The position numbers and the translations under genes were made by a program. From an uncultured Gammaproteobacteria bacterium (GTDB lineage: Bacteria; Pseudomonadota; Gammaproteobacteria; CAYNNN01), in the NCBI GenBank assembly GCA_964398665.1, contig CAYNNN010000005.1, positions 2,025-66,024 on the forward strand: DNA of 64,000 bases. The letters run 5' to 3'. The notes under the pieces are model-generated. The model saw only the letters and a list, made by a program, of their open reading frames with translations. It was not told where the DNA came from and did not search any database. Each line of letters opens with the position of its first letter. The first letter of the stretch is position 1. Shown here one piece after another: positions 31,082-64,000 of the stretch.

Positions 31082-31093
31082 CGCAACCCCCGC

Positions 31094-32365: not shown

Positions 32366-32418
32366 GACACACTCCCCCAAGCATTTTAATTATCATTGCA
32401 AATTGGCATGCAGACCGA

Positions 32419-33825: not shown

Positions 33826-33864
33826 AATTCACCTGCTCCCCGCTGTTCTACAGTCTAATCAAAA

Positions 33865-46413: not shown

Positions 46414-47700
46414 TCAGGGCGTGCTGAATGACCAGGCGCTCAGGTCGCCGGACTCAAAGCCATCACCAAAAAGGGTGGGCACTGTAACAAAGTCGGCCGC
46501 AATGGCCGTGGTGCCGGTGCCACTGTCACCCTCGCGCAGGGTACGCGCATTGTCACGCTGGCTGGCAATACCGGTGGCCTGACCGTTATAGGTGATGCTG
46601 GGGTTGGAAAAATGGGCAACGCGGGTACAGCCCTGGGTACATTGGCTGGAATAGGACATCACGGTGCGAAAACTGCCATTGACATAATGGCCAAATGACC
46701 AGGGATAGGAAGCACTGCCCGCCGCCGGACCGTTGGCCGGGTCGTGTTCCAGGCCGAGATTATGGCCATGTTCATGCGCATAGGTAAGGTTGCCCACCGC
46801 ACAACCGCGCGCGGTCACCTGAAAGGCGCTGGCAGCAAAACTGGTGCTGGGATTACGCATCACGTAGCCCACGCCGCAAAAGCCACCCCCATCCTCCACC
46901 AGCAGACTGACCAGATCGGCCCCGACATTGGCGCGCAGGGTAGCCACGGTACCGTCATTGGCTACCCAGGTCAGGTCGGTGCTGGTATTGCCGCTGTCGT
47001 CATGGTCGGCCAGCCCGGTGTACACCAGATTGAACTGGGCGGGGACGTTACTGTTGCCAAAGGCAGTGTTGGCATTGTCCACCGCTGCCTGGGCAGTGGC
47101 TTCGATATTGGCCACCCCACCGGCCGCATCCCGCGCCTGCGGGGTATACAGCACCATGACATCAATCAGGGCATTGGCCGCCCCGACCCGGCTGGTTCCG
47201 GAAGGGGTCATGGCAGAGGCGGCATGATCAGGGTCAGGGGCTTCCAGGGCGCCGCCACAGGTGGGAAATTGGGCCTGATCCAGTTGCCGCAACTGGTAGC
47301 CGCCGGTAACCGGAAGCAGCTCATAGACATGCTTCGGGGCCAGCAGCAGCCCGTACAGCACACCTTTCTTGTAGGTCAGCGTCACCTGCCCGGTCTGGTC
47401 CTGGGCGGCGGGGTACTGACCACGCCAGACATAATCCCCACCACTGCGGGCCTGGACTGTTTGCCGCAAGGCGCTCAGGACAGTGCCATCGGGCAGGGGC
47501 AGCTCGATCCGGGCGCTGTTGCCGGCCGCCAGCGCCGTAGCCGCATCCACCTGTAGGCTATGGGCGCTGACGACGGCCGGGGCCAGTTGGGGATTGAGAT
47601 CGGCTGCCCCGACGATGTGATACAACGCATCGGCCCCGGCGGGGCGCAACAACCCGCTGATCAAGCCAAAACCGATAGCACCAGGACCCAGGCGTCGCAT
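46414..47700 (-). CDS. Secreted M12-type (reprolysin-like) metzincin with C-terminal FxDGFE tail
   Basis: HEHGHNLGLEHD zinc motif, RTVMSY Met-turn, prodomain-like N-terminus, ends LFGDGFESGDLSAWSFSTP. Start uncertain. Confidence 0.85.
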   Translation of the reverse strand: MRRLGPGAIGFGLISGLLRPAGADALYHIVGAADLNPQLAPAVVSAHSLQVDAATALAAGNSARIELPLPDGTVLSALRQTVQARSGGDYVWRGQYPAAQDQTGQVTLTYKKGVLYGLLLAPKHVYELLPVTGGYQLRQLDQAQFPTCGGALEAPDPDHAASAMTPSGTSRVGAANALIDVMVLYTPQARDAAGGVANIEATAQAAVDNANTAFGNSNVPAQFNLVYTGLADHDDSGNTSTDLTWVANDGTVATLRANVGADLVSLLVEDGGGFCGVGYVMRNPSTSFAASAFQVTARGCAVGNLTYAHEHGHNLGLEHDPANGPAAGSASYPWSFGHYVNGSFRTVMSYSSQCTQGCTRVAHFSNPSITYNGQATGIASQRDNARTLREGDSGTGTTAIAADFVTVPTLFGDGFESGDLSAWSFSTP

Positions 47701-47764
47701 ATTCAATGATTCCACGATGGCAGAAGGGAAACTGTAACGTGAACGGCGCCAGGCGGCAAGCCAC

Positions 47765-49936
47765 TTACGGGTATAGCTCTCGCAGCGGGCTGGGCAGGTT
47801 GATGCCATAGCCTTGGGCATAATCAATACGCATGGTCTGCAATTTCAGGATGATGTCGGTATTCTCCGCATACTCGGCGATGGTCTTTAGCCCCATCAGA
47901 TGCCCTATCTGGTTGATGGCCTCGACCATGGCACAATCCACATTGTCATCCAGGATGTCGCGCACGAAACTGCCGTCAATTTTCAGGTAATCTACCGGCA
48001 GGTTGCGCAGATAGCTGAATGAGGACAATCCAATGCCGAAATCGTCCAGCGCAAAGCTACATCCTAGGGCGCGCAGTTGCTGCATGAACAGGCTGGCGCG
48101 GGCCAGATTGCCGATGGCGGCCGTTTCGGTAATCTCGAAACACCAGCGGGCGCCGGATAACCCAGCGTCCCGCAATTGATCCTGAATGAACTCCAGCATC
48201 CCCTCGTCACTGATGGAAGTGCCGGAAAGATTTACCGCACACAGCGGCGGCACCTGACCCAGTTGGAGCAATCGGCGCTGAAACTGGGCGACCTGGCGCA
48301 CCACCCAGCGATCAATCTGGGGCATGAGCCGGTAGCGTTCCGCCGCAGGAATGAAGCTGTCCGGCGGCACCATCCGCCCGTGGTCATCCCGCAGACGCAA
48401 CAGGATTTCATGGTGATGAGGCCGGACCCCCTTTGGCAGGGCGAGATCAAGAATGGACTGATAATAAAGTTCAAATTCGTTGCGCTCCAGCGCACCGGAA
48501 ATGCGGGAGGCCCAGTCCATTTCCCGGCGCCGGCGCAAGCTTTCATCGCTGCTTTCCTGATAGACATGAACCCGGTTCCCGGTTTCCTTGGCGGTATAGC
48601 AGGCCACATCAGCAGCGCTCATGAGTTCGGAGAGGCTGCTGCTATGGGGATTGATCAGCACAAAACCAATGCTGACGGCGACTTCAAAGCGCCGTTCCTT
48701 CCAAGTAAAGCGAAATTCCCGCACCGCGCTGCGCAGGTTTTCCGCCACCAGCAGGCCCTGCTCCTGCGGGCAATGATCCAGTAACACACCGAACTCATCG
48801 CCGCCCAGGCGGGCGACCAGGTCACTGTGCCGCACTTTGGCCTGAAACAGGGCGCTGAGCTGACAGAGCAGGCGGTCGCCCGCGATATGACCGCAGGTGT
48901 CATTGACAATTTTGAAATAATCCAGATCCAGATACAACAGACTATGGGTTTTGCCATCACGTTGCGCGCCGCCCAGGGCCAATTCTACCCGGCGTTCAAA
49001 CTCACGCCGGTTGGCCAGGCCCGTGAGCGGGTCATGGGTCGCCTGCCAGGCCAGCCGGTTGGCCATATCGCGGGCCAGAGTGACATCGTGGAACGCAAAC
49101 ACCGCACCGGTGATTTGGTGATGCGCCGTGTGGATGGGCGCTGCCGAACCTTCGATGGCAAGTCGGTCACCATCCTGGCGGACCAGGGTCAACTGATGCA
49201 CCCGGCGCAGCAGGCGACGTTCCCGCAATACCTGAGTCAGCGGGCATTCCAGTGGCTGACCGGAGCTTTCATGGAGTAAATGAAACGCTTGATCCACCGA
49301 CTGACCCAGCAGTTCGGCGGCGGTATAGCCCAGCATCTTCTCGGCGGCCGGGTTCAGATAACTGATACGGCCTTCCAGGTCGGCACTCACAATGCCCTCG
49401 GCGATGGCTTCCAGGGTAATGCGGGATTTTTCCTTTTCCTCAAACAGCGCACGCTCGGCCTGATAGGAACGCAAGGCCGTAACCAGTGTGGAAAACAGCT
49501 TCTGGGCCGTCAGTTCGGTCTTGGCCTTGTAGTCGTTGATGTCGTACTGGATGATGACCTGCCGTTCCGGGGCCTGGCCGGGCTGCCCGGTACGCAGAAT
49601 GATGCGGACAAAGTTATTTTTCAACTCGTTGCGGATGAATTCCACCAGACGCAGGCCCGCATCGTCACGATCCATGACCACGTCCAGCAGGGCTACGGCC
49701 AAATCGGGATGGGCCCGCAACAAGGTTTGTGTCTCGGCCATCGAGTGCGCACTGAGCAAGTCCAGCCCGCGCCCGGCGAATTGAAAGCCATGCAGGGCCA
49801 GCCGGGTGACGTGATGGACATCCACCTCATCGTCTGCGATCAGAACCTTCCAGGGGCTGAGCGGGGCAGTGGCCGTGGGTGCTGGCGCCTCTTCATCGGC
49901 AAACAGGTTTTCTTCGTCGGGGTTATCAGGCGTCAT
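47765..49936 (-). CDS. REC-PAS-GGDEF-EAL c-di-GMP enzyme
   Basis: REC LIADDE, LLDVVM, LRTG, KAK; PAS NPAAEKMLGY; RHSD I-site and GGDEF; EILLRL, EITE, DDFGIG, KIDGSFV, AEY, QGY. Confidence 0.92.
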   Translation of the reverse strand: MTPDNPDEENLFADEEAPAPTATAPLSPWKVLIADDEVDVHHVTRLALHGFQFAGRGLDLLSAHSMAETQTLLRAHPDLAVALLDVVMDRDDAGLRLVEFIRNELKNNFVRIILRTGQPGQAPERQVIIQYDINDYKAKTELTAQKLFSTLVTALRSYQAERALFEEKEKSRITLEAIAEGIVSADLEGRISYLNPAAEKMLGYTAAELLGQSVDQAFHLLHESSGQPLECPLTQVLRERRLLRRVHQLTLVRQDGDRLAIEGSAAPIHTAHHQITGAVFAFHDVTLARDMANRLAWQATHDPLTGLANRREFERRVELALGGAQRDGKTHSLLYLDLDYFKIVNDTCGHIAGDRLLCQLSALFQAKVRHSDLVARLGGDEFGVLLDHCPQEQGLLVAENLRSAVREFRFTWKERRFEVAVSIGFVLINPHSSSLSELMSAADVACYTAKETGNRVHVYQESSDESLRRRREMDWASRISGALERNEFELYYQSILDLALPKGVRPHHHEILLRLRDDHGRMVPPDSFIPAAERYRLMPQIDRWVVRQVAQFQRRLLQLGQVPPLCAVNLSGTSISDEGMLEFIQDQLRDAGLSGARWCFEITETAAIGNLARASLFMQQLRALGCSFALDDFGIGLSSFSYLRNLPVDYLKIDGSFVRDILDDNVDCAMVEAINQIGHLMGLKTIAEYAENTDIILKLQTMRIDYAQGYGINLPSPLRELYP

Positions 49937-52900
49937 GGCGCACCGCGTGCAAGGGTAAGGGAATCTTCAGCGTAAAGTGGGTGCCCAGGCCAGGCTGGCT
50001 GCGGCAGGCAATTTCGCCGCCCAGCGTCCGGGTGACCAGATTATAGGTGATATGCAGCCCCAGGCCGCTACCCCCCGTGCCACGGCGGGTGGTGAAGAAT
50101 GGCTCGTAGATGCGTTTGAGATGGGCGTCCGCAATCCCTTTGCCGTTATCACTCACCTGCAACACCAGCCGTTCTTCGGGACGACGGCGCACCAGTTCAC
50201 GCGGGCCGGTACCGGGTTGCGGCACAGGATAGACATTGCGCACCCAATCCTCTTCAAAGCCCACTTCAATCTGGATCTGGCGCGGGGGCGGCTGGTCTTC
50301 AAAACCGTGCAACACGGCATTGGAAATTAAATTGGTGAGGATTTGGGCAAATACCCCCGGATAACTGGTGATGTACAGGGGTTCCGGGCAAGTGAGCATG
50401 ACCTCAACCTGATTTTTCCGCAGCAGCGGACTCAAGCTGAGCAGAATTTCTTCCAGATAGGGCTTGAGACCAAATTCCCGCTGCGCCTCGCTGGACTGAT
50501 CCACGGCCACCTGCTTGAAACTATGCACCAGATTGGCCGCCCGCTGCATATTGTGTTGCAACATCTGGAAACCTTCCTCGGCCAGTTTCAGGAATTCCTC
50601 CAGCTCGGAGCGCTTCATTTTCCCGGCATTGAAGCTGCCCGTCAGGGTCAGAATGCGCTCATGCAGAAAGCTGGCGGTAGTCACGGCATTACCCAGCGGG
50701 GTATTGATCTCGTGGGCCACACCGGCCACCAGCCCCCCCAGGGAAGCCATTTTCTCGGACTGAACCAGGCGCTCCTGCGTTTCTTTCAACAACCGCAGGG
50801 CATTGCTCACCTCCTCCTTTTCCTTGCGCAAGGCCAGGGTACGTTCGGAAACCTGCAAGTTCAGAAAATTGCTGGCATAGCCGAGCGTAAAGGGCAGATC
50901 CACGGCCCAGCGCAGCAGCAAAGGCAGCAAAAAGAGCGCGGTAAAGACGCTGGTCAGAATCGCCACGCTGGTATACATCGCCAGACCCCAGATATTCGCC
51001 AGATCCGTGAGAAACAGCGGCAACAGGCTCAACAGCAGGACCACCACGGCCAGGACCACGCCGGAACCGGTGGTGCTCAGGGTTTGCTTCAACGCTTCAT
51101 TCAGGTCTTCGCTACGTTCGTATTCAACCCGAAAGCGGGCAGCCAGATAGATGCAGTAATCCACACCCAGCCCCATGGCGATGCTGAGCGTGACCAGATT
51201 GCCAAAATGCAGGTTGCCGCCCCAGTTGCCAACACTGCTGAAATAACCGCCCAGGCCGTATTGGGTAATCAACGTGATGCTGACCATCAGCATGATCAGG
51301 GTTGCCATGAGCAGAGAACGAAACATCCAGGTGATCACACCCCCGACCAGCAAGGCGGTCAACAAGGGATTGAGCAGCCAGTTTTCGGCGCTGATTTCGC
51401 GGCTGGCTTCCGTGGTACCGGCAAACCCGCCGATGCCGACTTCAGGCCGCAGTTGGGGCAAACCCAGCGCCACCGGGCGAAACTGGGGGTCGTCCCGGTG
51501 GAGCTTGATATAGGTCCGGATCCGCTCCAGGGTCGCATGGACGGACTTCGGGTCCAGGGTTTTGATATAGCCGATGATCTGGGCATTGCCATAGTCATAG
51601 TCCACTACCGAACTGAAATCACCCGAGTCCGCACCCATGGCGTAGGTAAAAATATATTGCTCGACCAGCTCAGGATCGTCCGGCAGGCGCCAATAGGCCG
51701 GATCGTTGTTGTGCAGGCTCTGATTCAGCAGGCGCAGATACTGGCTGAATGACACCGTATACCCGACATTGGGGTCCTGATGCAGAAAACTTTCCAATTC
51801 ATCAATTGCTTGTAGCACTTCAAGCCGCTTGAATGCGCCGGGTTCCCTGCCCAGAAGCGGGATGTTGAACGACACCACGCCCGGCATCATCCGGTTGAGC
51901 TGATTCAAGTCCTGAATCAGCGGACTGCTGGGCTTGAAGGCCGCCTCCGGGTAATGAATGCCCAATTCCAGGCGCGGGATGAACAGCGCTGAAACGCCAA
52001 CCAAACCCAGGCTCAAACCGACCGGCAGCCACTTCCAGGGCCCGGTCAGCAACTTCAACACACCCTGCCCCAGACGGGCCTCCCAGGTGCGTACCGTGTG
52101 ATCTGCGGGTAACGGTTTGTGGGACACCCACATGACCAGCAGCAGGGGCAGCAGGGTGGTGGTGGTCAACAACAGGCTGAACATGCCGAACATGCCGAAG
52201 TAGGCGTAATCCCGGTAAAAGGAAATGTCCACCCAGGCGAGACTAAAGAAGCCTACCACATCGGTCAGGATGGCCATGCTGGCCGGGAACAGGGTATGCC
52301 GGATCGCCCGTTGCGCAGCCAGTTGCGGGGGCTGGGTATGCAGCTCATCACCATAACGGCGCATGATCTGCACGGCATGACCAATGCCGATGGCAAAGAT
52401 CAGCACCGGAGTCAGCACCATCATGGTGGTCAGCTCAAAGCGGGTCAGTCCCATCAGGCCCAGGGTCCAGAGGATGCTGATGCTGACTGTCAGCACCGGC
52501 AACAAGGCCAGCCGCCAGGAACGGGATTCGGCATACAACACGGCCAGGACCAGCAGCAGGGAGAGCAGGAACCAGTGCCAATGCTGGGCCAGATTGACCA
52601 GCATTGAAGCCAGAAAATAAGGTTCTCCGGAAACATAGACCTGCAAGCGATCATCGGCACGCGTCTGGGCCAGCAAGGCCTGAAAGGCCAGCACCCAGGT
52701 ATAATACTGGTTCTTGATGCTGCTATCGAAGTCGGCAATGATGAAAGTGGCTTTACGGTCTTCTGAAAGCAGCATGGGCCGCAGGATGGGGTTGGTTTCC
52801 AGCCCCGTACGCAACACCGTCAAAGCTGCTTCGGCTGCCACCGGATCATCGGGCAGACCCTCGCGGGGCAGCAGGCGGCGGATATCCAGACCATCCTCGG

Positions 52901-53282
52901 TGCCCCGGATATAGCGCACCTTCTTGGCGGCGATGGAAATGAAATTCTCTGGCCGGGCGCCGGGCAGGGCCGCCAGGTGCTGATGGAGCTGGCGCACCGC
53001 ATTGATGAACCAGGGCTGATAGATATCCCCTTCACGCACCGCCAGGCCAATGACCACCAGGTTACCCATGCCAAAAGTCTGTTCTACATAATTGTTGGTC
53101 TGCACATGGGGGTTGCGTAGCGGGAGCAGGGAATCCGGATCGTTGCGGATGATGATCCGGGGAATCTGGGTCAGCGCCAGCCCGGTCAGGATGATGACCA
53201 GCCCCAGCAACCAGAACCGTCCCCGCACCGCAGCGGCCGCGTAGCGTTCTGGCCAGGCCGGGGTCGGCGCACTAGAAGGCAT
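49926..53282 (-). CDS. MMPL/RND-family membrane protein fused to a C-terminal histidine kinase
   Basis: About 790 aa MMPL-like (TM motifs AIGIGHAVQ, GLGVDY), then QVSERT coiled coil, SEKMASLG, VAHEINTPLG, NLISNA, DNGKG, EPFFTT, GSGLGL; one open frame. Confidence 0.9.
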   Translation of the reverse strand: MPSSAPTPAWPERYAAAAVRGRFWLLGLVIILTGLALTQIPRIIIRNDPDSLLPLRNPHVQTNNYVEQTFGMGNLVVIGLAVREGDIYQPWFINAVRQLHQHLAALPGARPENFISIAAKKVRYIRGTEDGLDIRRLLPREGLPDDPVAAEAALTVLRTGLETNPILRPMLLSEDRKATFIIADFDSSIKNQYYTWVLAFQALLAQTRADDRLQVYVSGEPYFLASMLVNLAQHWHWFLLSLLLVLAVLYAESRSWRLALLPVLTVSISILWTLGLMGLTRFELTTMMVLTPVLIFAIGIGHAVQIMRRYGDELHTQPPQLAAQRAIRHTLFPASMAILTDVVGFFSLAWVDISFYRDYAYFGMFGMFSLLLTTTTLLPLLLVMWVSHKPLPADHTVRTWEARLGQGVLKLLTGPWKWLPVGLSLGLVGVSALFIPRLELGIHYPEAAFKPSSPLIQDLNQLNRMMPGVVSFNIPLLGREPGAFKRLEVLQAIDELESFLHQDPNVGYTVSFSQYLRLLNQSLHNNDPAYWRLPDDPELVEQYIFTYAMGADSGDFSSVVDYDYGNAQIIGYIKTLDPKSVHATLERIRTYIKLHRDDPQFRPVALGLPQLRPEVGIGGFAGTTEASREISAENWLLNPLLTALLVGGVITWMFRSLLMATLIMLMVSITLITQYGLGGYFSSVGNWGGNLHFGNLVTLSIAMGLGVDYCIYLAARFRVEYERSEDLNEALKQTLSTTGSGVVLAVVVLLLSLLPLFLTDLANIWGLAMYTSVAILTSVFTALFLLPLLLRWAVDLPFTLGYASNFLNLQVSERTLALRKEKEEVSNALRLLKETQERLVQSEKMASLGGLVAGVAHEINTPLGNAVTTASFLHERILTLTGSFNAGKMKRSELEEFLKLAEEGFQMLQHNMQRAANLVHSFKQVAVDQSSEAQREFGLKPYLEEILLSLSPLLRKNQVEVMLTCPEPLYITSYPGVFAQILTNLISNAVLHGFEDQPPPRQIQIEVGFEEDWVRNVYPVPQPGTGPRELVRRRPEERLVLQVSDNGKGIADAHLKRIYEPFFTTRRGTGGSGLGLHITYNLVTRTLGGEIACRSQPGLGTHFTLKIPLPLHAVRHDA

Positions 53283-55197
53283 AACGCACCCCCAGGGTCA
53301 AGCCGGAACCGCGCCCGGCAAATTGACCCAGCAGACTGTCCTCGGTGCCAAAATATAGATTACTTTCCAGGGTATAGGTCAACTGGTCGCTGCTATCATA
53401 ACTGAGCTGGAACTGATCCCAGTAGCCGCCATCGGCATCAGCCAGCAACAGATTGCTCAGGCGCAGGCGTTCATTCAGAGCGCTGGTGGCCAGATACAGG
53501 CTGAAAAAATTCTGATACCGGGCGCCGGCCCGTAACCCGTTGCTCAGATTCACGGTTGCAAAATCGGCGCTGACCCGGCGATAAGCCTCCCCCGTCACCG
53601 GATTGAGCACGGTAGCCCCCAGGCTGTCCTGGGCGGCGCTGGGGGCATCCACATAGTCCAGGTTGATGAACTGGATAAACTGCACGCTGGTAAACAGGTT
53701 GCGCAGAAATGTCCTGTCCAGGCCAATGACATAACGCAAATAATCTGCCGGTTCCTGACGCAGGCCCGCCGCCAGGTCGCCCACTGCCGCGTAACCAAAA
53801 TCCACCACCGGCTGGCGGTCATCCAGGTTCAGCAGTACCTCACCCCGCAGCACGACCGGCCCCCAGCGCGTTTCCAGTTGGCTGTCGAAACTGCCCCCCA
53901 GGCTGTGAACCCGGTGCAATCGCTCGGTAAATACCAGACTGAGCGCATCCCCTGCGGGCGTCTGGTCTGAGGCATTGCTGGGATGAGCCGGGCTACCCGA
54001 GTAAATCTGCCCATCCGCGCCCTGAAAGCCGGTGATGGACAGCGGCGCACCGCTGGCATTGGGCTGGCGGGCATAAACCGGCGTCACGGGCTGACCGCCG
54101 GCCTCGTAGTGCAGGCCGACCTGAGGGTCGTTACTCCAATGATAATAATAATTCAGGGAATAACGGGTGGGGCCGGATTTACCCTTCCAGCGCAGACCCA
54201 GATTGCTGGCTTCCAGGGTCAGGGAATTGGGGTAACGGCGCTGATAACGGCTGGTCAGCCCGGCAAAGTTCAGATTGGTCTCAAAGGTAGCCAGGGCCGT
54301 TATTTCAAAGAGAGAGTCCGTCCGGCCATCTCCAGCGCTGAGCAAGGCCGCTTCATAGGCAGCGCTGGGCAGTTTGAGCTGACCGATGGCCTGGGTAATG
54401 GCCGGATTCAACCCGACGCCCGGCATCAGCACCCCGGTGTTGAACACAGTCTGGGCGGCCCACTGGCCGGGGGCAGGCTGACCCAATTGCTGGCTCAGAC
54501 CGCTGGCCAGCGTACCCAGACGGCCCGCCAGCGGCGCAAACCCGTAAACCGGGCCGGTGATGGCATCTATTCCCTTGAATACAAATGGATGACCTACATC
54601 ACCCCCGGCATCCAGCCCCGGATATTGGTTAGCCTTGACATCCGGGACCCAGACCCATTGCAGCGCCTGTTCCTCACCCAGACGCCACTCGCCTTTGGCC
54701 ATCCAGAGCGTGACCCGAAAATCTTCAAAGGTGTTTTGATAGAATTCCCGAAAATCACTGGGATTAATAATATCCAGCAGCTTGATCCCGTCTGCCGTGC
54801 CCCAGACGACCTGCTGTTTGCCCAGGCGCAGGCTGAAGTTCTCCTGCGTCCAGTCCAGATAGGCTTCCCGCAATGGATCGGCGGTCGTGCCCCGGCGCGG
54901 ATAGGCGTAACGCTGCGCCAGCGCTTGGTGGGGACATACCCGCTTGCTCAGTGGGTCGTCATCCTGACAATAATCCCAGGTCGCATCGTAGTAGAGCCGG
55001 GGTTGCAGATGCAGTTGCAACTGTTCGTTGAAGGTATAGTTGGCAAACAGGTCCAGGGACCACTCGCTGCGGCTGAGGTCTCGGCCCGCTTGCCAGCGCA
55101 TGGTGGTCTCGTTGCGGGCCAGACCCGTCAGCGCCCATTCGCCCGCATGACCATCCGCAGCAACCAGCAGGGCACAGCTCAATATCAGCAGTCGCAT
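53272..55197 (-). CDS. DUF1302-like outer-membrane beta-barrel
   Basis: Signal peptide, LREAYLDW, LGKQQVVWGTADG, DIINPSD, terminal VRYAF. Confidence 0.78.
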   Translation of the reverse strand: MRLLILSCALLVAADGHAGEWALTGLARNETTMRWQAGRDLSRSEWSLDLFANYTFNEQLQLHLQPRLYYDATWDYCQDDDPLSKRVCPHQALAQRYAYPRRGTTADPLREAYLDWTQENFSLRLGKQQVVWGTADGIKLLDIINPSDFREFYQNTFEDFRVTLWMAKGEWRLGEEQALQWVWVPDVKANQYPGLDAGGDVGHPFVFKGIDAITGPVYGFAPLAGRLGTLASGLSQQLGQPAPGQWAAQTVFNTGVLMPGVGLNPAITQAIGQLKLPSAAYEAALLSAGDGRTDSLFEITALATFETNLNFAGLTSRYQRRYPNSLTLEASNLGLRWKGKSGPTRYSLNYYYHWSNDPQVGLHYEAGGQPVTPVYARQPNASGAPLSITGFQGADGQIYSGSPAHPSNASDQTPAGDALSLVFTERLHRVHSLGGSFDSQLETRWGPVVLRGEVLLNLDDRQPVVDFGYAAVGDLAAGLRQEPADYLRYVIGLDRTFLRNLFTSVQFIQFINLDYVDAPSAAQDSLGATVLNPVTGEAYRRVSADFATVNLSNGLRAGARYQNFFSLYLATSALNERLRLSNLLLADADGGYWDQFQLSYDSSDQLTYTLESNLYFGTEDSLLGQFAGRGSGLTLGVRYAF

Positions 55198-55206
55198 CCG
55201 GCCCCC

Positions 55207-56190
55207 CTAACGCTCGGTCCGTTCCAGATGGGCGATACTCCAGGTATCGTCCGGTAAATCGGCATTCCAGGCACTGGTCTCGGGTGGAATGACCGCCATG
55301 CTTTCATGGCCACTGGCCAGCGTTTTGCCATACCACATCACCCAGTACACAGCGCGGAGGTCAGCCACATCCGCACTGCCGGGATGCTGGCGCATCGGGC
55401 GCCAATCCCGGTCGATGATCTTGACCAGCTGGCCGTTTTTGTAGCTCAGGGTGCGATAATCGGCAAAGCTTTCCTGATCCACCCAGGAAATCCGGTAGTC
55501 GTACCAATAATCCTTGAAGGTGGTCGTACTCTTGATGACATAACAGGGCCGGGGTGCAAAATCCTCGTGTGCCTGCGGTTGATAGGCCATGAAAACCTGC
55601 TGTTGCTCCGGCGGAATGCTGATGACATGCAGACGCCCGCCCCCTTCCTGCGCCTGCGCAAACGGCTCGACCCGCAGTAGTTCATGGGTCTCATGCTCCG
55701 GGCGGCGCAAGGATACATCATCAAAGTTCCAGTCGGTGCCCGCATAAGCATCATCATGATTAGGCTGGGTAAATCGCCTTGGCTTGCGTAGGGCGGGCAA
55801 CCAGACGACCAGCTCCTGGCTACGGCTGCTGTCCAGAAAATCCGAGATTAAAAATGCCGTCCCGTTGACGGCTGCCGGATAGCGGAAGATGGCGATATCC
55901 TGCGCCAACAACGGGGAATTTTCCGGAAACGCATTGCGCAGGAAACGCTCCAGGGTACGAAACCGGTATTTGCCTTCGCCGTTACGATAGACCAGATAGG
56001 GAATGCTGGCGCCCTGTTTGCGGATGGCATAATTGCGCACGGCCCGGAAGTGGTTGACATACCAGACCTGGGCCATGATGTTGGCTGGACTGGGCGCAGC
56101 GTCAGGATAGGCCACATCCACCGCAGGCGCCCCGTTGGCAACCCCGCTGCCCAGCCACAGCAACAGGGTCATCATGAGAATGGCTTGCAT
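55207..56190 (-). CDS. LolA-like / DUF1329-type periplasmic lipid-carrier-like protein
   Basis: Signal peptide, GTAFL, WLPALRKPRRF, GTDWNFDDV, YKNGQLVK. Confidence 0.78.
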   Translation of the reverse strand: MQAILMMTLLLWLGSGVANGAPAVDVAYPDAAPSPANIMAQVWYVNHFRAVRNYAIRKQGASIPYLVYRNGEGKYRFRTLERFLRNAFPENSPLLAQDIAIFRYPAAVNGTAFLISDFLDSSRSQELVVWLPALRKPRRFTQPNHDDAYAGTDWNFDDVSLRRPEHETHELLRVEPFAQAQEGGGRLHVISIPPEQQQVFMAYQPQAHEDFAPRPCYVIKSTTTFKDYWYDYRISWVDQESFADYRTLSYKNGQLVKIIDRDWRPMRQHPGSADVADLRAVYWVMWYGKTLASGHESMAVIPPETSAWNADLPDDTWSIAHLERTER

Positions 56191-56486
56191 AATAATTCCC
56201 CCACACTCCAAATAGCTTAGTCGCTTTGGGCGTAGTTGCAAGCCAGGGTGGACCGGTCATCATGCCGCGTGGCGGCCCGATTCCAGGGCCAGACACCACC
56301 CGGGATGGTGGCGGCCACAGCCAACGCACCGCAAGGCACGCGGGCGGGGCTACGCCGGGACTTGGCATAACCGGCAGCCGGGTGGTCAGCCGGGGCGCAT
56401 CTCACGTCCCCCGTGTTGACTTGATGGTCACCCTGAGTCAGGCAGGCGGGCACCTCCAGGATCGGGGGACTTGCTGCCGGTCCGGC

Positions 56487-57671
56487 TCACGGCATTGAAC
56501 GCAGCCGTTCAACTTGCTGACGGCGTTTTTGTTCCTGCTTCTCGCGCTTGTCCTTCTTCTGGCCGGGGTCACCCCAGCCGATGGCGTCATAAATGCGCGT
56601 GAGCAAGTCCGCCACGGCCAGACGCTCCGCCGAGTCAGCACCCGCCTGTTGAGCCTGTTCCAGCAAGCCATTTATTTTGCCGATAAACTCACTGCGCTTG
56701 TTTTTTTGTGCCATCTCATCCTGTTGCTGATAGCGGGTAAACGCCTCCTCCAGTTGTACCCGTTGCCGACCCAGCGGGGACAAGGTAGCGAGTAGGGCCT
56801 GTTTTCGCGCCTCTTCGGCCTGCTGATGCTTCAGTTCGGCTTGGCGTTGTTGTTGCGCGCGCAACTCCGCGAGCTGCTTCGCCAGGGCCTGTTGCTGCGT
56901 TTCGTCTTTATGAAACAGCCCGTAACCGGCCCGGGTTTTCGCGCCAATCCCGTCTATCGTCAGGGCCGCAACCAACATTTGTTTGGCTAACGGCAACCAG
57001 TCGGCAGGGCCTTCAAGCACAAACAAAAAGCTGCCCTGCACCGCGATTTGGGCGTTCGGAATGGGGCTGTCTAAATCACTGGCCGGTACCGCACCTTCTT
57101 TGCCGTAGTAATCCAGATGATGGGTAGTCACGACCTCCTCGACAAAGGGCTTGTTGCTGTTGGTAGACTGCGGCACCCACCAGGCATCGTGAAAGCTGAT
57201 CAAACCCGCCAGACCATCCGGATCATCTTTGCTGGGCGCGGCACCGAACAGCTCATCGCAGTGGTCGGGATAGTGTTGGCCAAATGCACTGCGCCGCACC
57301 TGGGCATTGACCACGCCTTTGACACTGGAACCGGGGATGTAGGGCATCCCGTAGCTATGGCTGATGGCACAGCCAGTTTCCAGCATCCCGCCGCCGGTCA
57401 GGCCGATGAACAACCGGGTTTCCAGCGTTAGCACCACCGTTGCAAAGCGCTGGCAGTCAGCGGCTTGGGTTAGCCACCGATTATAAGCCTGCTGGTAAAA
57501 CTCACTGGCCTGGATCTTGCAAATGTCCTGGATGTGCTGGGTTTTAAGCTCCTTATTCTGTTCATCGTGCTGACTCAGCCCGCGCTGAATCAACAAGCCG
57601 GGGTGGGCATCTTTGGCATCTTTGGCCTTTGCATAATGGTGACGTAGCGCTTGGCGCATTAACTCGGTCAT
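56487..57671 (-). CDS. cmr6: Type III-B RAMP Cmr6 with helical C-terminal extension
   Basis: PYIPGSSVKG, FHDAWW, VVTTHH, PIP, GIGAKTRAGYG glycine loop. Confidence 0.92.
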   Translation of the reverse strand: MTELMRQALRHHYAKAKDAKDAHPGLLIQRGLSQHDEQNKELKTQHIQDICKIQASEFYQQAYNRWLTQAADCQRFATVVLTLETRLFIGLTGGGMLETGCAISHSYGMPYIPGSSVKGVVNAQVRRSAFGQHYPDHCDELFGAAPSKDDPDGLAGLISFHDAWWVPQSTNSNKPFVEEVVTTHHLDYYGKEGAVPASDLDSPIPNAQIAVQGSFLFVLEGPADWLPLAKQMLVAALTIDGIGAKTRAGYGLFHKDETQQQALAKQLAELRAQQQRQAELKHQQAEEARKQALLATLSPLGRQRVQLEEAFTRYQQQDEMAQKNKRSEFIGKINGLLEQAQQAGADSAERLAVADLLTRIYDAIGWGDPGQKKDKREKQEQKRRQQVERLRSMP

Positions 57672-58075
57672 GATTGCACCCCGTTTGCAGTCTCACCGGT
57701 AGCACCCACCCGCAACACGCCTTGGGCGTAGCGCTTGAGCCAGCCGCTGGCTTCCAGGGCGCGGCGGGTCAGCAACAGCGTTTGCGCCAGATCCGCAGCA
57801 ATAACAGCTTGATGTAACAGCTCAGCGCTGGCTGTGTTTGTAACGCCGGTTGCTTGCAACACTTGGCGCAGGTCATCAAGCACTGCCCGATGCGCGTCTG
57901 TGCCTTTGCTTTTAGCCAGCAAAAACCCGGTTGCTTGCGCCAGGCCATTTTGCAAAATCATGCCGGGCAGCTTGTGCAGCAGGGCCCCATATTCTTTTTT
58001 GAAGGTCGCATCTTCGCGGGCACTGACGCGCTGGTACGCCGCCTGGGCAACCCGATGGGTACGAATCTTGGGCAT
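57668..58075 (-). CDS. cmr5: Type III-B small subunit Cmr5
   Basis: LPGMILQNGLAQATGFL, WLKRYAQG; between cmr4 and cmr6. Confidence 0.9.
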   Translation of the reverse strand: MPKIRTHRVAQAAYQRVSAREDATFKKEYGALLHKLPGMILQNGLAQATGFLLAKSKGTDAHRAVLDDLRQVLQATGVTNTASAELLHQAVIAADLAQTLLLTRRALEASGWLKRYAQGVLRVGATGETANGVQS

Positions 58076-58076
58076 G

Positions 58077-58949
58077 TCACACCCCCTGCGGCAAGTAGCG
58101 CACCAAGCCTCGGCCTACCCCGGCTTTACCGCCCAATTGCAGCAGGGTGCCGCTTGCGGGTAGGGCCTGAGCCAACTGAGTCGCTGGATGGGTATCTTTG
58201 GGATTGCGGGATTCCGTTAGGGCATAAACCCCCCACAACACCGATTCGGCAGGCAGATTTTCCTCATACCACAAAGCACTGCGCTTGACTGTGCCGGTAT
58301 TATGGTCAATCGCAATCCGGGTGCGGATTTCGGTCGCGGTTTCGGCTAAAAAGCCCAAAATCTCGTCAGAAACTACGGCAAAGCGCTCCTTGAGTGCGGC
58401 TTGCGCCTTGACATCATCGGGATAAACCATTTGGGCAACGTGCTGTGCCCAGGCGGTCACAATCCCGGCGGGCTGGGCGGTCAGATCCAGGTCTTCCAGC
58501 ACCAGCGTCTGGTTCAATAAATTCACCGAACCTTCGGCCACTTGCGCGCCGTTCGCAGGCGGCGTGGGCAAGGTCGGCGGCGGTGTCTGGCCTGCCAGCC
58601 TCAAGTCTTGGGCATAATGGCGCAAGATAAATGGCGACGTGACAAAGCACACCACGCCCGCCAGGCTGCGCACCGGCAACAGCAACAAATGCGCATCGCC
58701 CACTGCCAGCGCCCCGGCGAAAGCGTCTTCATTACTGTTGATGAATTCCGGGCCAAAGAGCGTGTGAGCTTCCTTTGGGCTAGTCGTTGTCACTTGTTGG
58801 CGCAACACCCCGCGCAGGCTGGATCCCGGCACGATGGGCAACTGCGTGGCCCGTGCGCGGGCAATCGGTAAATCTACGACTCCGGCAGATTGCCCGGTGC
58901 CGCAATGCAGCGCTGAAAGCGCATGAAGATGAAATAATTGAGCTTGCAT
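58077..58949 (-). CDS. cmr4: Type III-B RAMP Cmr4
   Basis: LHCGTG, VDLPIAR, PGSSLRG, DAHLLLLPVRS, LWYEENLP, QLGGKAGVGRG. Confidence 0.95.
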   Translation of the reverse strand: MQAQLFHLHALSALHCGTGQSAGVVDLPIARARATQLPIVPGSSLRGVLRQQVTTTSPKEAHTLFGPEFINSNEDAFAGALAVGDAHLLLLPVRSLAGVVCFVTSPFILRHYAQDLRLAGQTPPPTLPTPPANGAQVAEGSVNLLNQTLVLEDLDLTAQPAGIVTAWAQHVAQMVYPDDVKAQAALKERFAVVSDEILGFLAETATEIRTRIAIDHNTGTVKRSALWYEENLPAESVLWGVYALTESRNPKDTHPATQLAQALPASGTLLQLGGKAGVGRGLVRYLPQGV

Positions 58950-58956
58950 AACCATC

Positions 58957-60126
58957 CTATTTCGAGTCAGAAGAAAGCACCGGCTTCCAGGCGGCTGGCA
59001 ACACCAGCCCGAAACCATCTAGGCGGTCTTGAGCCGCATCACAGACACTGCCCAACCACAGCCGTTGCAGGACTGCCGGTTCCGGGTCATTCAGACATTC
59101 AAACCAATAAACCGCCCCCGCAGGCACCAGCTTGCGGGTCTGACGCGGTGCCCAGGCCGCCAAATCCCAGCCCGATTGCGGCTGCCAACGTTCCACCGCC
59201 GCCGCCACCAGCCGCAGCTGCACTTCGGGCAGGCCGGGTGGACTGCCACACCCCTTCGCATCCAGCCAAGCAGGCCGAAACCCCGCTTCAAACAGCCCCG
59301 GCGTCAGCAAGGTCAGACTCAACCCCCCTTGCTGCACAATGGCTTCCAGCCAACCATCAGGCGGCGTGGGCCACAGCGCGTCCGCTTCAGGGTGCAAAGC
59401 CGCCAGCCGTTGTTCACCGCCCAAACGCACCAGATCGGGCGCTAAGGGCTGACCAAAACAGGCCAGCAATTGCACTGCGGGTCGGGCAGGTTCCTTGGCC
59501 GCTTCGGGTTTAGGCCATTCTGCGGCCAGATCCAGGCCCTCGGTTTGAAACAGGCGGCCCTCAAGCGCGGCCCGCCGCTGCGCGTCCAGGGCTACGTGAG
59601 TCCGTCGGTCGCCAGGGGGTGGGGTATAGCCTTGTTTCAAGTCGGGCGCCTGTCCTCGCCGCCAGGCCAGCAGGTCTTGCCAGCGCCACCAGGTCGGGCC
59701 TTTGCCGCTTTTTTCACGTTCGTCCTGCACCAGGCGCACCGGGAGCAGGCCCTTGGGGAGATCACAGCCGCAGCCTGCGGGTAAGCCTTGCGGCTGGGCA
59801 CGCACACAACGCACGGTATCCCCTTGGCCAAAATACAGCGCATCCGCCGGTTTAGGCACCAGCACGTCCTGGCCTCGCAAGAGTAACGGCCCCGCCACCG
59901 ACAGTTGCAGCAATTCCGGGCTAAAGGCTTGCGCGCGGGCACGTGCCCACGCGGTGCGTAAACACCCTGCAATTGTGGACGGTGGCGGCAACCGGGCCGG
60001 GTCGGCGCGGGTCTGGCCCACGCTGGGCTTGCCCGAACGCACGATGACGGGTGCCAGGGGCGCCAAACTCACCACCGAGTGGGATGCCACTTGCTTTAGT
60101 ATTTCGCTAATCGCTTGCTGATTCAT
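58957..60126 (-). CDS. cmr3: Type III-B RAMP Cmr3
   Basis: PPPSTIAG, RTHVAL, GRLF, LGGEQR, LLTPG, SGWD, VPAGAVYW, GFG. Confidence 0.92.
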   Translation of the reverse strand: MNQQAISEILKQVASHSVVSLAPLAPVIVRSGKPSVGQTRADPARLPPPSTIAGCLRTAWARARAQAFSPELLQLSVAGPLLLRGQDVLVPKPADALYFGQGDTVRCVRAQPQGLPAGCGCDLPKGLLPVRLVQDEREKSGKGPTWWRWQDLLAWRRGQAPDLKQGYTPPPGDRRTHVALDAQRRAALEGRLFQTEGLDLAAEWPKPEAAKEPARPAVQLLACFGQPLAPDLVRLGGEQRLAALHPEADALWPTPPDGWLEAIVQQGGLSLTLLTPGLFEAGFRPAWLDAKGCGSPPGLPEVQLRLVAAAVERWQPQSGWDLAAWAPRQTRKLVPAGAVYWFECLNDPEPAVLQRLWLGSVCDAAQDRLDGFGLVLPAAWKPVLSSDSK

Positions 60127-60127
60127 C

Positions 60128-61948: not shown

Positions 61949-61960
61949 CAGGCAAGCTCC

Positions 61961-63214: not shown

Positions 63215-64000
63215 GATTTTCCTCCTTCATACAAATCCATGCGCACAAAGGGCGCATATTTTTTCGCCCGGTCGCGCAACAACTGACCCACAACATCACC
63301 GCTGCGCTGACGCTGGAGTAATGCCTCGTATTCAGGCTTATCCGCAATCTGCCAGACCAGCAGGCGCCAGCCCTCGACCGACACCAGATAGCGATCCCGG
63401 GTATGCGCCCCCGGTTTGAGCCAGTAAAACCCCTGCCCCCAGTTGTCGTGGATGCCGATTTGCAACTGCGCGGGGCTGGCCGCCACCCGCGCCAGGTACG
63501 CATCGGGCTTGGTCCCCTCAATGCCGCGCATCTGCACCAGGTCCTCCAGGGCAAGCCGTGATAGATAAGGCACCAGCGCCGTGGGCTTGTGCAATTCTTC
63601 CCACAATAATAGACCGACCGGCGACAGCGTGACTTCGGCGCCCTCACGCTCAAACAGCGGCTCCAGGGCGGTCCGTGCATCGTAGGGAATCGCCTTTTCC
63701 CAGTCCGCCAATGGCATGGCCGAATCGCGCTGAATCACTTCAAAGACCGCCCGATGCGTTTCCAGCGGGGTACGGGCAAACTCGACGGGCATCATTGGCA
63801 AGGCAATCAGTGCGGTAGATTGCTCAAAAATGTATTTCGCCGGGACATGCTTCAGCATCCCGATCAACACGGTATAAGGCACTAAGCTCTTGAAGCCCCC
63901 GGTCGGGTTCAACACGCACTGCGCCGGGCCGTGACTATCAATTTCGTGGAGCACCTTCTGGGTAAAATTCAGCACCCCGGCACGTCGGAACTTCGCCGCA
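63211..64000 (-). CDS. CARF (APE2256-like) protein with probable C-terminal RelE-like domain, Cami1-like (partial, start beyond right edge)
   Basis: LNPTGGFK and YIFE CARF motifs; frame open to 64000 (AAKFRRAGVLN); C-terminal YWLKPG...RYLV...LLVWQI resembles a RelE-type fold. Confidence 0.65.
   Translation of the reverse strand, partial: AAKFRRAGVLNFTQKVLHEIDSHGPAQCVLNPTGGFKSLVPYTVLIGMLKHVPAKYIFEQSTALIALPMMPVEFARTPLETHRAVFEVIQRDSAMPLADWEKAIPYDARTALEPLFEREGAEVTLSPVGLLLWEELHKPTALVPYLSRLALEDLVQMRGIEGTKPDAYLARVAASPAQLQIGIHDNWGQGFYWLKPGAHTRDRYLVSVEGWRLLVWQIADKPEYEALLQRQRSGDVVGQLLRDRAKKYAPFVRMDLYEGGKS

What the first reader, a model, noticed from the sequence alone, without database searches (positions are those of the whole stretch)
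49926..53282. MMPL/RND membrane domain fused to a histidine kinase: a Patched-like transceptor candidate
Seen: a full 12-TM MMPL-like region runs without a stop into a signalling helix (QVSERT...QERLVQSEKMASLG) and a complete kinase core from about 50880, in an operon with a barrel and LolA-like carrier. Known: transporter-kinase fusions exist for solute:sodium symporters (CbrA/CrbS); I know of none characterised for MMPL/RND proteins. Inference: substrate binding or passage in the MMPL domain controls the kinase.
Basis: partly seen in the sequence, partly recalled or inferred. Interest (0 to 1): 0.88.

Follow-up and report, generated by a model that had tools for sequence, protein, structure and literature searches.

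The report
RND lipid-transporter fused to histidine kinase
One 1118-residue gene joins a complete 12-helix MMPL/RND-type membrane transporter to a complete histidine kinase, a rare but conserved fusion that probably lets the state of a lipid or hydrophobe transporter control cyclic-di-GMP signalling directly.

Summary
ORF 49926-53282 (-) encodes 1118 aa: an MMPL/RND domain with 12 TM helices and two periplasmic loops, an 8-residue break, an S-helix with the invariant ERT signature, then DHp (His857) and an ATPase domain with intact N, G1 and G2 boxes.

It is not an assembly error. Contigs from two independent studies cover the whole ORF without a difference. Fifteen homologues of 50-55% identity from other metagenomes have the same fusion and form one clade, sister to unfused MMPL genes that end just after TM12.

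The gene sits in a translationally coupled operon: LolA-like protein, DUF1302 barrel, MMPL-kinase, then REC-PAS-GGDEF-EAL. That regulator follows the fused gene in 5 of 8 loci where the downstream side is visible.

There is no other sensor domain. The S-helix is the most conserved segment, and the TM4 His and TM10 Asp-Tyr are kept. The best reading is therefore that the conformational or transport state of the RND domain sets kinase activity, which controls c-di-GMP turnover. This is inferred, not shown.

I found no paper describing an RND-kinase fusion. The family is very rare: one full-length cluster at 50% identity among 1.84 billion representatives. I class it as a new variant of the known transporter-kinase ("transceptor") kind.

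The parts
49926..53282 (-). Whole MMPL/RND-histidine kinase fusion gene (P0001, 1118 aa)
   Evidence: ORF and translation. Pfam MMPL + HATPase_c. 15 full-length fused homologues. Contigs from independent runs are identical across it.
50898..53282 (-). MMPL/RND transporter domain, residues 1-795: 12 TM helices and two periplasmic domains (about 42-230 and 437-635)
   Evidence: Hydropathy scan. AF2 helices at pLDDT mostly >90. Foldseek to MmpL4/5/3, TM-score normalised to the target 0.75-0.77.
52377..52379 (-). TM4 His302 in the motif GIGHxxQ; occupies the place of the TM4 acidic relay residue of other RND proteins
   Evidence: Invariant in fused homologues and in all unfused relatives examined. 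Codon checked.
51156..51161 (-). TM10 Asp708-Tyr709 (GLGVDY), relay-type pair
   Evidence: D708 nearly invariant and Y709 invariant. All 10 TM10 positions conserved in unfused relatives are kept in the fused clade. Codons checked.
50874..50897 (-). Short non-helical linker after TM12 (residues 796-803, LPFTLGYA)
   Evidence: AF2 secondary structure, low pLDDT at 799-804. Translation.
50748..50873 (-). Signalling helix (S-helix), residues 804-845, with invariant E813-R814-T815
   Evidence: Part of the single AF2 helix 804-885. The ERT signature defines the S-helix (PMC1592074). Most conserved segment of the family, mean column identity 0.82.
50493..50747 (-). DHp helical hairpin, residues 846-930, with phospho-acceptor His857 (codon 50712-50714) in AHEINTPL
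   Evidence: H857 invariant. AF2 helices 804-885 and 891-930. Weak Pfam HisKA hit. Codon checked.
49926..50492 (-). Catalytic ATP-binding (CA, HATPase_c) domain, residues 931-1118, plus stop
   Evidence: Pfam HATPase_c 3.3e-21. Invariant N988, D1045/G1047/G1049 and G1070/G1073/G1075. PDB sequence matches to ZraS, CckA and other kinases.
53272..55197 (-). DUF1302 outer-membrane barrel protein (P0002, 641 aa); its end overlaps the start of the fusion gene by 11 nt
   Evidence: Pfam DUF1302 8.9e-13. 53% identical to the barrel beside fused homologue L001 and 34% to the barrel of the unfused cassette L007. Overlap sequence.
55207..56241 (-). LolA-like / DUF1329-like periplasmic protein (P0004). 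Likely true start is the ATG at 56190, followed by a signal peptide
   Evidence: Pfam LolA_like 1.7e-17. Start region read. A LolA-like gene lies directly upstream of the fused gene in 7 of 8 loci where that side is visible.
47765..49936 (-). Cognate response regulator REC-PAS-GGDEF-EAL (P0003, 723 aa); its start overlaps the end of the kinase gene by 11 nt
   Evidence: Pfam. Orthologues directly downstream of the fused gene in L003, L004, L006 and L010. REC D35/D36/D85/T116/K137 and the EAL catalytic residues are invariant. Overlap.
56242..56486 (-). Non-coding gap between the upstream Cmr6-like gene and the LolA-like gene; probable promoter region of the operon (inference only)
   Evidence: ORF map. 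Sequence read. The sigma-70 scan found nothing convincing there.

Best explanation
The gene encodes a single-polypeptide sensor in which an MMPL/RND (HAE3-like) membrane domain serves as the input module of a class I histidine kinase.

Shown:
- The domain order is 12-TM RND domain, 8-residue break, S-helix (ERT), DHp with His857, then the CA domain.
- There is no PAS, HAMP, GAF or other sensor domain.
- The fusion is conserved and arose once.
- The gene is translationally coupled to a LolA-like periplasmic protein and a DUF1302 barrel upstream, and to a REC-PAS-GGDEF-EAL regulator downstream.

Inferred mechanism:
- With the LolA-like carrier and the barrel, the RND domain handles a hydrophobic or amphiphilic envelope compound, using the proton-motive force through TM4 His302 and TM10 Asp708-Tyr709.
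- The occupancy or cycling of that domain (a flux signal) moves TM12.
- In a dimer, this movement is passed through the S-helix coiled coil to the DHp bundle and switches the enzyme between kinase and phosphatase states.
- The phosphoryl group goes to Asp85 of the adjacent regulator. That changes its EAL (and here also GGDEF) activity and so the cellular c-di-GMP level.

The cell would thereby tie biofilm and motility decisions to the load on an envelope lipid/hydrophobe transport route. I commit to the version in which transport is retained (a true transceptor or flux sensor).
For: - Architecture and structure model.
- Kinase competence: invariant H857, N988, D1045/G1047/G1049 and G1070/G1073/G1075.
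- Coupling element: the invariant ERT S-helix directly follows TM12 and is the most conserved segment of the family (0.82, against 0.76-0.78 for the TM domains and 0.60 for CA).
- Retained transporter features: TM4 GIGH and TM10 GVDY are identical in the fused and unfused clades. All 10 conserved TM10 positions are kept. TM-domain identity within the fused clade (mean 0.64) equals that within the unfused clade (0.656), so there is no sign of relaxed constraint.
- Ancestral cassette: LolA-like + barrel + MMPL in the unfused relatives, with an orthologous barrel here.
- Single origin of the fusion: SH-aLRT 93.
- Cognate regulator: adjacent in 5 of 8 loci, with an invariant acceptor Asp and invariant EAL residues.
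- Not an artefact: independent contigs are identical.
- Precedents for transporter-fused kinases: CbrA (PMC13022988) and Ks-Amt5 (PMC5764959).
- Precedents for the cassette as a hydrophobe transport system: AmeABCD (PMC6394551) and TOL_3187/3188 (PMC6304351).
Against: - There are no experimental data on any member, and all members come from metagenomes.
- No RNA run holds the gene.
- The substrate is unknown.
- TM4 carries His rather than the Asp of MmpL3/HpnN-type relays, in the whole subfamily.
- An Asp in TM12 that is at least 95% conserved in unfused relatives is Ser in the fused clade (position 778). The fused clade has also lost two Cys-containing periplasmic insertions, and its C-terminal periplasmic domain is the most diverged part (35 of 62 conserved positions kept). 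These changes could mean altered or lost transport.
- The barrel gene is missing next to the fused gene in most homologous loci, and the LolA-like gene is missing in one.
- The regulator is not adjacent in 3 of 8 loci.
- Kinase function needs a dimer. The oligomeric state of this RND domain is unknown, and the monomer model has low confidence at 799-850.
Confidence: 0.55

Rival explanations
1. Receptor only. The RND domain has been co-opted as a ligand-binding sensor and no longer performs net transport, as reported for the Amt domain of Ks-Amt5. The LolA-like protein delivers a hydrophobic signal molecule to it, and binding alone switches the kinase.
For: - The TM12 Asp conserved in unfused relatives is replaced by Ser in the fused clade.
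- Two periplasmic Cys-rich insertions are lost, and the C-terminal periplasmic domain has diverged strongly.
- The barrel gene is absent beside most fused homologues.
- Precedent: Ks-Amt5 (PMC5764959).
Against: - TM4 His and TM10 Asp-Tyr and the rest of the TM core are kept as strictly as in unfused relatives.
- The window's own locus and L001 keep the complete barrel + LolA-like + MMPL cassette.
Confidence: 0.25
2. Reverse direction or mere anchoring. Either the kinase part responds to a cytoplasmic cue, or none, and the RND domain is only a membrane or dimerisation anchor. Or the kinase/ATP-binding module regulates the transporter rather than reporting on it.
For: - The same window holds a second MMPL protein with two N-terminal receiver domains (33865-37230). 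In this organism, phosphorylation may therefore also act on RND transporters.
- The kinase core is a common plug-in module, 46-50% identical to kinases attached to many different sensor types.
Against: - No cytoplasmic sensor domain exists between TM12 and DHp.
- An 800-residue RND domain conserved at transporter-like levels is far more than an anchor needs.
- The S-helix, which Anantharaman et al. describe as a transmitter between an N-terminal sensor and a C-terminal output, is the most conserved part.
- A dedicated response regulator is co-conserved.
Confidence: 0.1
3. Artefact: two separate genes (an MMPL transporter and a soluble kinase) joined by an assembly or sequencing error at about 50800-51000.
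For: None found. The closest unfused relatives do end right after TM12.
Against: - Contigs from runs of different studies cover 49800-53400 with 0 differences and 0 gaps, and short contigs of two further runs cross 50491-51217.
- 15 homologues at 50-55% identity from JGI, ENA, Logan and NCBI data carry the same continuous fusion, with the junction as the best-conserved part.
Confidence: 0.01

Closest known systems
CbrA / CrbS-type transceptors (SLC5/sodium-solute-symporter domain fused to STAC-PAS-histidine kinase)
   Same: A complete secondary-transporter fold at the N-terminus and a DHp+CA kinase at the C-terminus of one polypeptide. The transporter is proposed as the signal input. Described as 'rare' (PMC13022988).
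   Different: The transporter superfamily differs (13-TM LeuT-fold SLC5 against 12-TM RND/MMPL with large periplasmic domains). CbrA couples through STAC and PAS domains, whereas here only an S-helix lies between TM12 and DHp. The output here is a c-di-GMP enzyme, not an NtrC-type transcription factor.
Ks-Amt5 (ammonium transporter domain fused to a histidine kinase, Kuenenia stuttgartiensis)
   Same: A transporter-fold membrane domain fused to a kinase and used as a sensor (PMC5764959). The kinase core of P0001 is 47-50% identical to kinases of Amt-PAS-GAF-kinase proteins (PF00909 hits).
   Different: Amt fold, trimeric, and reported to sense rather than transport. Here the fold is RND, and whether it transports is unknown.
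AmeABCD and related DUF1302 / DUF1329(LolA-like) / HAE3-RND cassettes; MMPL-LolA fusions such as TOL_3187
   Same: The same module of outer-membrane barrel, LolA-like periplasmic protein and MMPL/HAE3-like inner-membrane RND protein. These cassettes are linked to hydrophobic compounds: monoterpenes, Tween/fatty esters and C28 alkane (PMC6394551, bioRxiv 10.1101/2020.07.04.188060, PMC6304351).
   Different: None of those carries a kinase. AmeABCD also has a Ycf48/BNR-like fourth protein that is absent here. P0001 scores far below the TIGR00921 HAE3 cut-off (109 against 352 bits), so it belongs to a separate subfamily.
MmpL3/MmpL4/MmpL5 (mycobacterial lipid and siderophore exporters) and HpnN
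   Same: Best structural matches (TM-score normalised to the target 0.75-0.77) and best PDB sequence matches for the membrane part. The TM10 Asp-Tyr motif is as in MmpL3.
   Different: About 13-16% sequence identity. TM4 has His instead of Asp-Tyr. None has a signalling enzyme domain; the C-terminal extensions of MmpL3 and MmpL4/5 are not kinases.
Patched / NPC1 / SCAP sterol-sensing-domain proteins of eukaryotes
   Same: RND-type fold with a sterol-sensing-domain-like TM2-6 region (Pfam Patched SSD and Sterol-sensing hits above cut-off; Foldseek hits to PTCH1, NPC1, NPC1L1 and Dispatched). An RND-fold lipid handler that acts in signalling.
   Different: Patched signals indirectly, through sterol availability to Smoothened, and has no fused enzyme. 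Here a kinase is covalently attached. The similarity is remote (12-15% identity) and the relationship is analogy in function, not orthology.
BceAB-BceS flux sensing and other transporter co-sensors
   Same: A kinase without a sensor domain of its own reads the activity of a transporter.
   Different: Those are separate proteins, and the transporter is an ABC type.

Membership tests
RND superfamily, MMPL-type (Pfam PF03176) | Pfam MMPL match above the gathering score | tested here: met
   136.1 bits against a cut-off of 20.5, two stretches.
RND superfamily, MMPL-type (Pfam PF03176) | 12 TM helices as two 1+5 repeats, with large periplasmic loops between TM1-2 and TM7-8 | tested here: met
   Hydropathy and AF2 helices. 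Loops at 42-230 and 437-635.
RND superfamily, MMPL-type (Pfam PF03176) | Overall fold like solved MmpL structures | tested here: met
   Foldseek E 3e-23 to MmpL4, TM-score normalised to the target 0.75-0.77 to MmpL3/4/5.
RND superfamily, MMPL-type (Pfam PF03176) | Charged proton-relay residues in TM4 and TM10 | tested here: inconclusive
   TM10 Asp708-Tyr709 is present and conserved. TM4 has His302 in place of the Asp-Tyr of MmpL3, as in all close unfused relatives. Whether His/Asp forms a working relay cannot be decided from sequence.
RND superfamily, MMPL-type (Pfam PF03176) | Proton-motive-force-driven substrate transport | not testable with these tools
   Needs reconstitution or genetics.
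HAE3 family as modelled by NCBIfam TIGR00921 | Score above the curated subfamily cut-off | tested here: not met
   109.4 bits against a cut-off of 351.9. HAE3-like, but not a member by this model.
Class I sensor histidine kinase (DHp + HATPase_c) | HATPase_c domain with N, G1 and G2 boxes | tested here: met
   Pfam 76.2 bits against 26.4. N988, D1045/G1047/G1049 and G1070/G1073/G1075 are invariant in 16 sequences.
Class I sensor histidine kinase (DHp + HATPase_c) | Phospho-acceptor His in an H-box on a helical hairpin | tested here: met
   H857 in AHEINTPL is invariant. AF2 hairpin 804-885 / 891-930. The Pfam HisKA model itself scores below its cut-off (18.6 against 26.9), so the DHp is of a non-canonical subtype.
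Class I sensor histidine kinase (DHp + HATPase_c) | Homodimerisation and autophosphorylation | not testable with these tools
   Only a monomer model could be made.
Signalling helix (S-helix; Anantharaman, Balaji & Aravind 2006) | About 40-residue coiled-coil segment between a sensor and an output domain, with the central ERT signature | tested here: met
   E813-R814-T815 invariant. Part of one continuous predicted helix. Definition read in PMC1592074. The best heptad register puts hydrophobic residues at a/d with a mean fraction of only 0.61.
Two-component system with a cognate regulator | Adjacent, co-conserved response regulator with acceptor Asp and acidic pocket | tested here: met
   P0003 overlaps the kinase gene by 11 nt. 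Orthologues follow the fused gene in 4 other loci. D35/D36/D85/T116/K137 are invariant. Phosphotransfer itself was not tested.
Transceptor (a transporter that both transports and signals) | Transporter fold and signalling output in one protein | tested here: met
Transceptor (a transporter that both transports and signals) | Demonstrated transport and demonstrated substrate-dependent signalling | not testable with these tools
   No experimental data for any member. No paper found.

The most novel reading that the evidence does not exclude
This is the first RND-superfamily transceptor. A working proton-driven lipid/hydrophobe transporter has its transport cycle read out in real time by a covalently attached histidine kinase (flux sensing) and converted into c-di-GMP turnover. 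It would be a bacterial, enzymatically readable counterpart of Patched/NPC1/SCAP-type signalling by RND-fold proteins.
Probability: 0.4. Interest if true: 0.8.

Novelty: new variant of a known kind. Interest (0 to 1): 0.62.

Why it matters
Transporter-kinase fusions are regarded as rare, and only SLC5 (CbrA/CrbS) and Amt (Ks-Amt5) types have been studied. An RND-type member would add a third, mechanistically very different transporter superfamily.

RND proteins work by large proton-driven conformational cycles that are hard to follow. A covalently attached kinase gives a natural biochemical read-out of those cycles, namely phosphorylation. It also offers a simple bacterial model for how RND-fold, sterol-sensing-domain proteins such as Patched, NPC1 and SCAP pass information to the cytoplasm.

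Biologically, the system would link envelope lipid or hydrophobe trafficking directly to c-di-GMP, and so to biofilm and floc formation, in bacteria of activated sludge. It could also help assign a function to the widespread but uncharacterised DUF1302 / LolA-like / MMPL cassette.

Tried and rejected
- **Assembly or frameshift artefact at the junction:** rejected.
- **Independent RND-kinase fusions elsewhere:**
  - A search with the S-helix+kinase part alone found MMPL-bearing hits only from this same family. The other close kinases carry PAS, GAF, dCache, HAMP, CHASE, SBP or Amt inputs.
  - A profile search of 1.84 billion representatives gave one full-length fused representative and one fragment.
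  - Long hits that might have hidden an RND domain turned out to be hybrid kinases, or MMPL-LolA fusions.
- **Genome collection:** the scan found only 2 fused loci (L009, L010) among 290 relatives.
- **Literature searches:** MMPL/RND + histidine kinase + fusion, MMPL + HATPase_c, RND + sterol-sensing domain + sensor kinase, and transceptor all found no description of this architecture.
- **Transcription evidence:** no RNA run holds the gene.
- **Promoter and terminator scans:** uninformative, with counts at or below the shuffled expectation.
- **Relaxed selection on the membrane domain in the fused clade:** not seen.
- **Earlier notes of this scan:** no other RND-kinase fusion is recorded.
- **Membership in the TIGR00921 HAE3 model:** rejected on score.


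Full report
**Observation**

The minus-strand ORF 49926..53282 is open for 1118 codons. Pfam finds the following:
- MMPL: 1.7e-39, two stretches.
- Patched-SSD and Sterol-sensing matches, weaker but above their cut-offs.
- HATPase_c: 3.3e-21, residues 979-1110.
- HisKA: sub-threshold, residues 849-909.

A hydropathy scan and an AlphaFold2 model (77-sequence alignment, mean pLDDT 86.5, pTM 0.71) agree on 12 TM helices. The layout is the RND 1+5/1+5 arrangement, with periplasmic domains at about 42-230 and 437-635.

TM12 (762-795) is followed by an 8-residue break. One continuous helix then runs from 804 to 885, followed by a return helix (891-930) and an alpha/beta ATPase domain. The quoted motifs and the TM10 Asp-Tyr pair are all present.

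**Not an artefact**

Logan contigs from two different studies (activated sludge 2021, sludge 2024) cover 49800-53400 with no differences and no gaps. Short contigs from two further studies cross 50491-51217.

Fifteen proteins of 1095-1126 aa (plus one truncated) from JGI, ENA, Logan and NCBI metagenomes share 50-55% identity over 97-99% of the length and have the same architecture. In their alignment these positions are invariant:
- The H-box His857 (AHEINTPL).
- N988.
- D1045/G1047/G1049.
- G1070/G1073/G1075.

On a tree of the membrane domain, the fused proteins fall on one side of a single branch (SH-aLRT 93). They are sister to 77 unfused relatives, so the tree needs only one origin of the fusion. 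The window's protein is the deepest and longest branch.

**What was fused to what**

The nearest unfused relatives are about 900-930 aa and 40-45% identical. They come from Chromatiaceae, Sedimenticolaceae, Thiodiazotropha, Thioalkalivibrio, Magnetococcales, Sulfurovum and Sulfurimonas. They end a few residues after TM12, so the kinase was appended to the C-terminus.

Those relatives sit in a three-gene cassette of LolA-like protein, about 720-aa barrel and MMPL. The window's barrel is 34% identical to that barrel and 53% identical to the barrel beside fused homologue L001. The transport cassette is therefore ancestral.

Related cassettes are known but poorly understood:
- AmeABCD (DUF1302 + DUF1329 + Ycf48-like + HAE3 RND) gives monoterpene tolerance in Castellaniella (PMC6394551).
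- DUF1302/DUF1329 genes show co-fitness with an RND gene on Tween and fatty esters in Pseudomonas (bioRxiv 10.1101/2020.07.04.188060).
- An MMPL-LolA fusion and a porin-like neighbour are induced on C28 alkane in Thalassolituus (PMC6304351).
- MMPL-LolA fusions also turned up among my hits (P0099, P0217, P0221).

The kinase part is a very common module. Kinases attached to PAS, GAF, dCache, HAMP, CHASE or Amt inputs are as similar to it (46-50%) as the kinase parts of its own orthologues are.

**The operon**

On the minus strand the order is:
- LolA-like gene, 55207-56241 (likely start at the ATG at 56190, followed by a signal peptide).
- 9-nt gap.
- DUF1302 barrel, 53272-55197.
- 11-nt overlap.
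- MMPL-kinase.
- 11-nt overlap.
- REC-PAS-GGDEF-EAL, 47765-49936.

Counting the window itself, a LolA-like gene precedes the fused gene in 7 of 8 loci where that side is visible. The barrel is present only in the window and in L001. A 719-726-aa REC-PAS-GGDEF-EAL orthologue (44-56% identical) follows directly in 5 of 8 loci where the downstream side is visible: the window, L003, L004, L006 and L010.

In these regulators the receiver residues D35/D36/D85/T116/K137 and the EAL catalytic residues are invariant. GGDEF is intact in three of them (including the window, which also has an RxxD site) but reads GSDEF or GADEF in two. The conserved output is therefore most likely phosphorylation-controlled c-di-GMP hydrolysis, with cyclase activity as an addition in some members.

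**How it most likely works**

Four points argue that the RND domain is the input:
- No other sensor domain lies between TM12 and the kinase.
- The connecting helix carries the invariant ERT signature that defines the S-helix. This coiled-coil element has been proposed to transmit signals from an N-terminal sensor to a C-terminal catalytic domain, and ERT mutations lock kinases or cyclases on (PMC1592074).
- The S-helix is the best-conserved part of the whole family: 0.82 mean column identity, against 0.76-0.78 for the TM domains and 0.60 for the ATPase domain.
- The membrane domain is constrained as strongly as in the unfused relatives (mean TM identity 0.64 against 0.656). TM4 GIGHxxQ and TM10 GVDY are unchanged between the two clades, and all 10 conserved TM10 positions are kept.

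My best explanation is that substrate load and proton-driven cycling of the RND domain move TM12. In a dimer, this is relayed by the S-helix to the DHp bundle. The resulting kinase or phosphatase balance sets the phosphorylation of the REC-PAS-GGDEF-EAL protein, and hence c-di-GMP. The anatomy is shown; the coupling, the dimer, the substrate and the direction of the response are inferred.

**Points against, and rivals**

Some features fit a receptor-only domain. An Asp in TM12 that is at least 95% conserved in unfused relatives is Ser in the fused clade. Two Cys-containing periplasmic insertions are missing. The C-terminal periplasmic domain has diverged most. The barrel gene is often absent from the locus. 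I give that rival 0.25.

Anchoring only, or regulation of the transporter by the kinase, gets 0.1. The main hint for it is a second, distantly related MMPL protein in the same window (21% identity). It has two N-terminal receiver domains, its own LolA-like neighbour and a REC-kinase, so phosphorylation may also act on RND proteins in this organism.

**Comparison with known systems**

The membrane part is an MMPL-type RND domain by Pfam, topology and fold. The closest solved structures are MmpL4/5/3 (TM-score normalised to the target 0.75-0.77), followed by NPC1, NPC1L1, Patched and Dispatched. It fails the curated HAE3 model TIGR00921 (109 against 352 bits).

The kinase part meets the sequence criteria of a class I histidine kinase, except that its DHp is below the Pfam HisKA cut-off.

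Functionally the closest precedents are the transporter-kinase fusions CbrA (SLC5-STAC-PAS-kinase, called a rare transceptor; PMC13022988) and Ks-Amt5 (PMC5764959).

'Patched-like' is a fair analogy, since an RND-fold lipid handler is used for signalling. It is not a membership claim.

**Novelty**

I found no paper describing an RND or MMPL domain fused to a histidine kinase. Automatic JGI annotation does name some members 'predicted RND superfamily exporter protein / nitrogen-specific signal transduction histidine kinase', so the architecture sits unremarked in databases.

It is very rare:
- About 16 clusters at 90% identity among 5.8 billion.
- One full-length representative and one fragment at 50% identity among 1.84 billion.
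- Two species genomes among 290 relatives in the genome collection.

All members are from uncultured bacteria. Where they are named, they are Gammaproteobacteria or Ectothiorhodospiraceae. I class it as a new variant of a known kind (transporter-fused sensor kinases).

**Verdict**

The mechanism remains untested.
- Interest: 0.62.
- Confidence in the input-domain mechanism with retained transport: 0.55.

Noticed in passing
window 29579-37230 (-): A second RND system fused to two-component domains lies in the same window. It comprises a 1121-aa protein with two N-terminal receiver domains followed by an MMPL domain (33865-37230), a LolA_like protein (32419-33825), a 428-aa protein without Pfam hits (31094-32380) and a REC-kinase (29579-31081), next to a PPTase, a thioesterase and an NRPS. 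Its MMPL domain is only 21% identical to P0001. Cross-talk with the MMPL-kinase is conceivable but untested.
   Followed up: partly
window 56487-63975 (-): A type III-B CRISPR-Cas effector module lies directly upstream of the operon: Cas_APE2256/Csx1-like, RAMP (Cmr1-like), Cas10/Cmr2, Cmr3, RAMP (Cmr4-like), Cmr5 and RAMP (Cmr6-like). It appears unrelated to the finding.
   Followed up: partly
window 46414-47826 (-): A reprolysin-like (M12B) secreted metalloprotease gene lies about 65 nt downstream of the GGDEF-EAL gene on the same strand. It is not found next to the fused gene in any homologous locus, so it is probably not part of the system.
   Followed up: partly
loci L011-L088 (genome-contig scan): The unfused LolA-like / barrel / MMPL cassette most related to this one occurs almost only in sulfur-oxidising lineages: Chromatiaceae, Sedimenticola, Thiodiazotropha and other symbionts, Thioalkalivibrio, Thiovulum, Sulfurimonas, Sulfurovum and Magnetococcales. 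This raises the untested idea that its hydrophobic substrate is connected with sulfur metabolism.
   Followed up: no
P0099, P0217, P0221: MMPL proteins with a C-terminal LolA_like/DUF1329 domain (about 1045-1052 aa) exist as a related family, like TOL_3187 of Thalassolituus. This supports a direct physical partnership between the MMPL and LolA-like proteins.
   Followed up: partly
L003, L004, L005, L006 downstream of the fused gene: Four fused loci share a conserved opposite-strand neighbourhood (DoxX, Glu_synthase-domain protein, aldehyde dehydrogenase, TPP enzyme, HvfC, MbnB/TglH-like). This suggests they come from one related lineage. This neighbourhood is not next to the window's operon.
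   Followed up: no
window residue 778 of P0001 (TM12; codon 50949-50951): Asp is conserved in at least 95% of unfused relatives at this TM12 position and is Ser in 93% of fused proteins. It is the only clearly non-conservative clade-specific change inside the TM core, in the very helix that leads into the kinase.
   Followed up: partly
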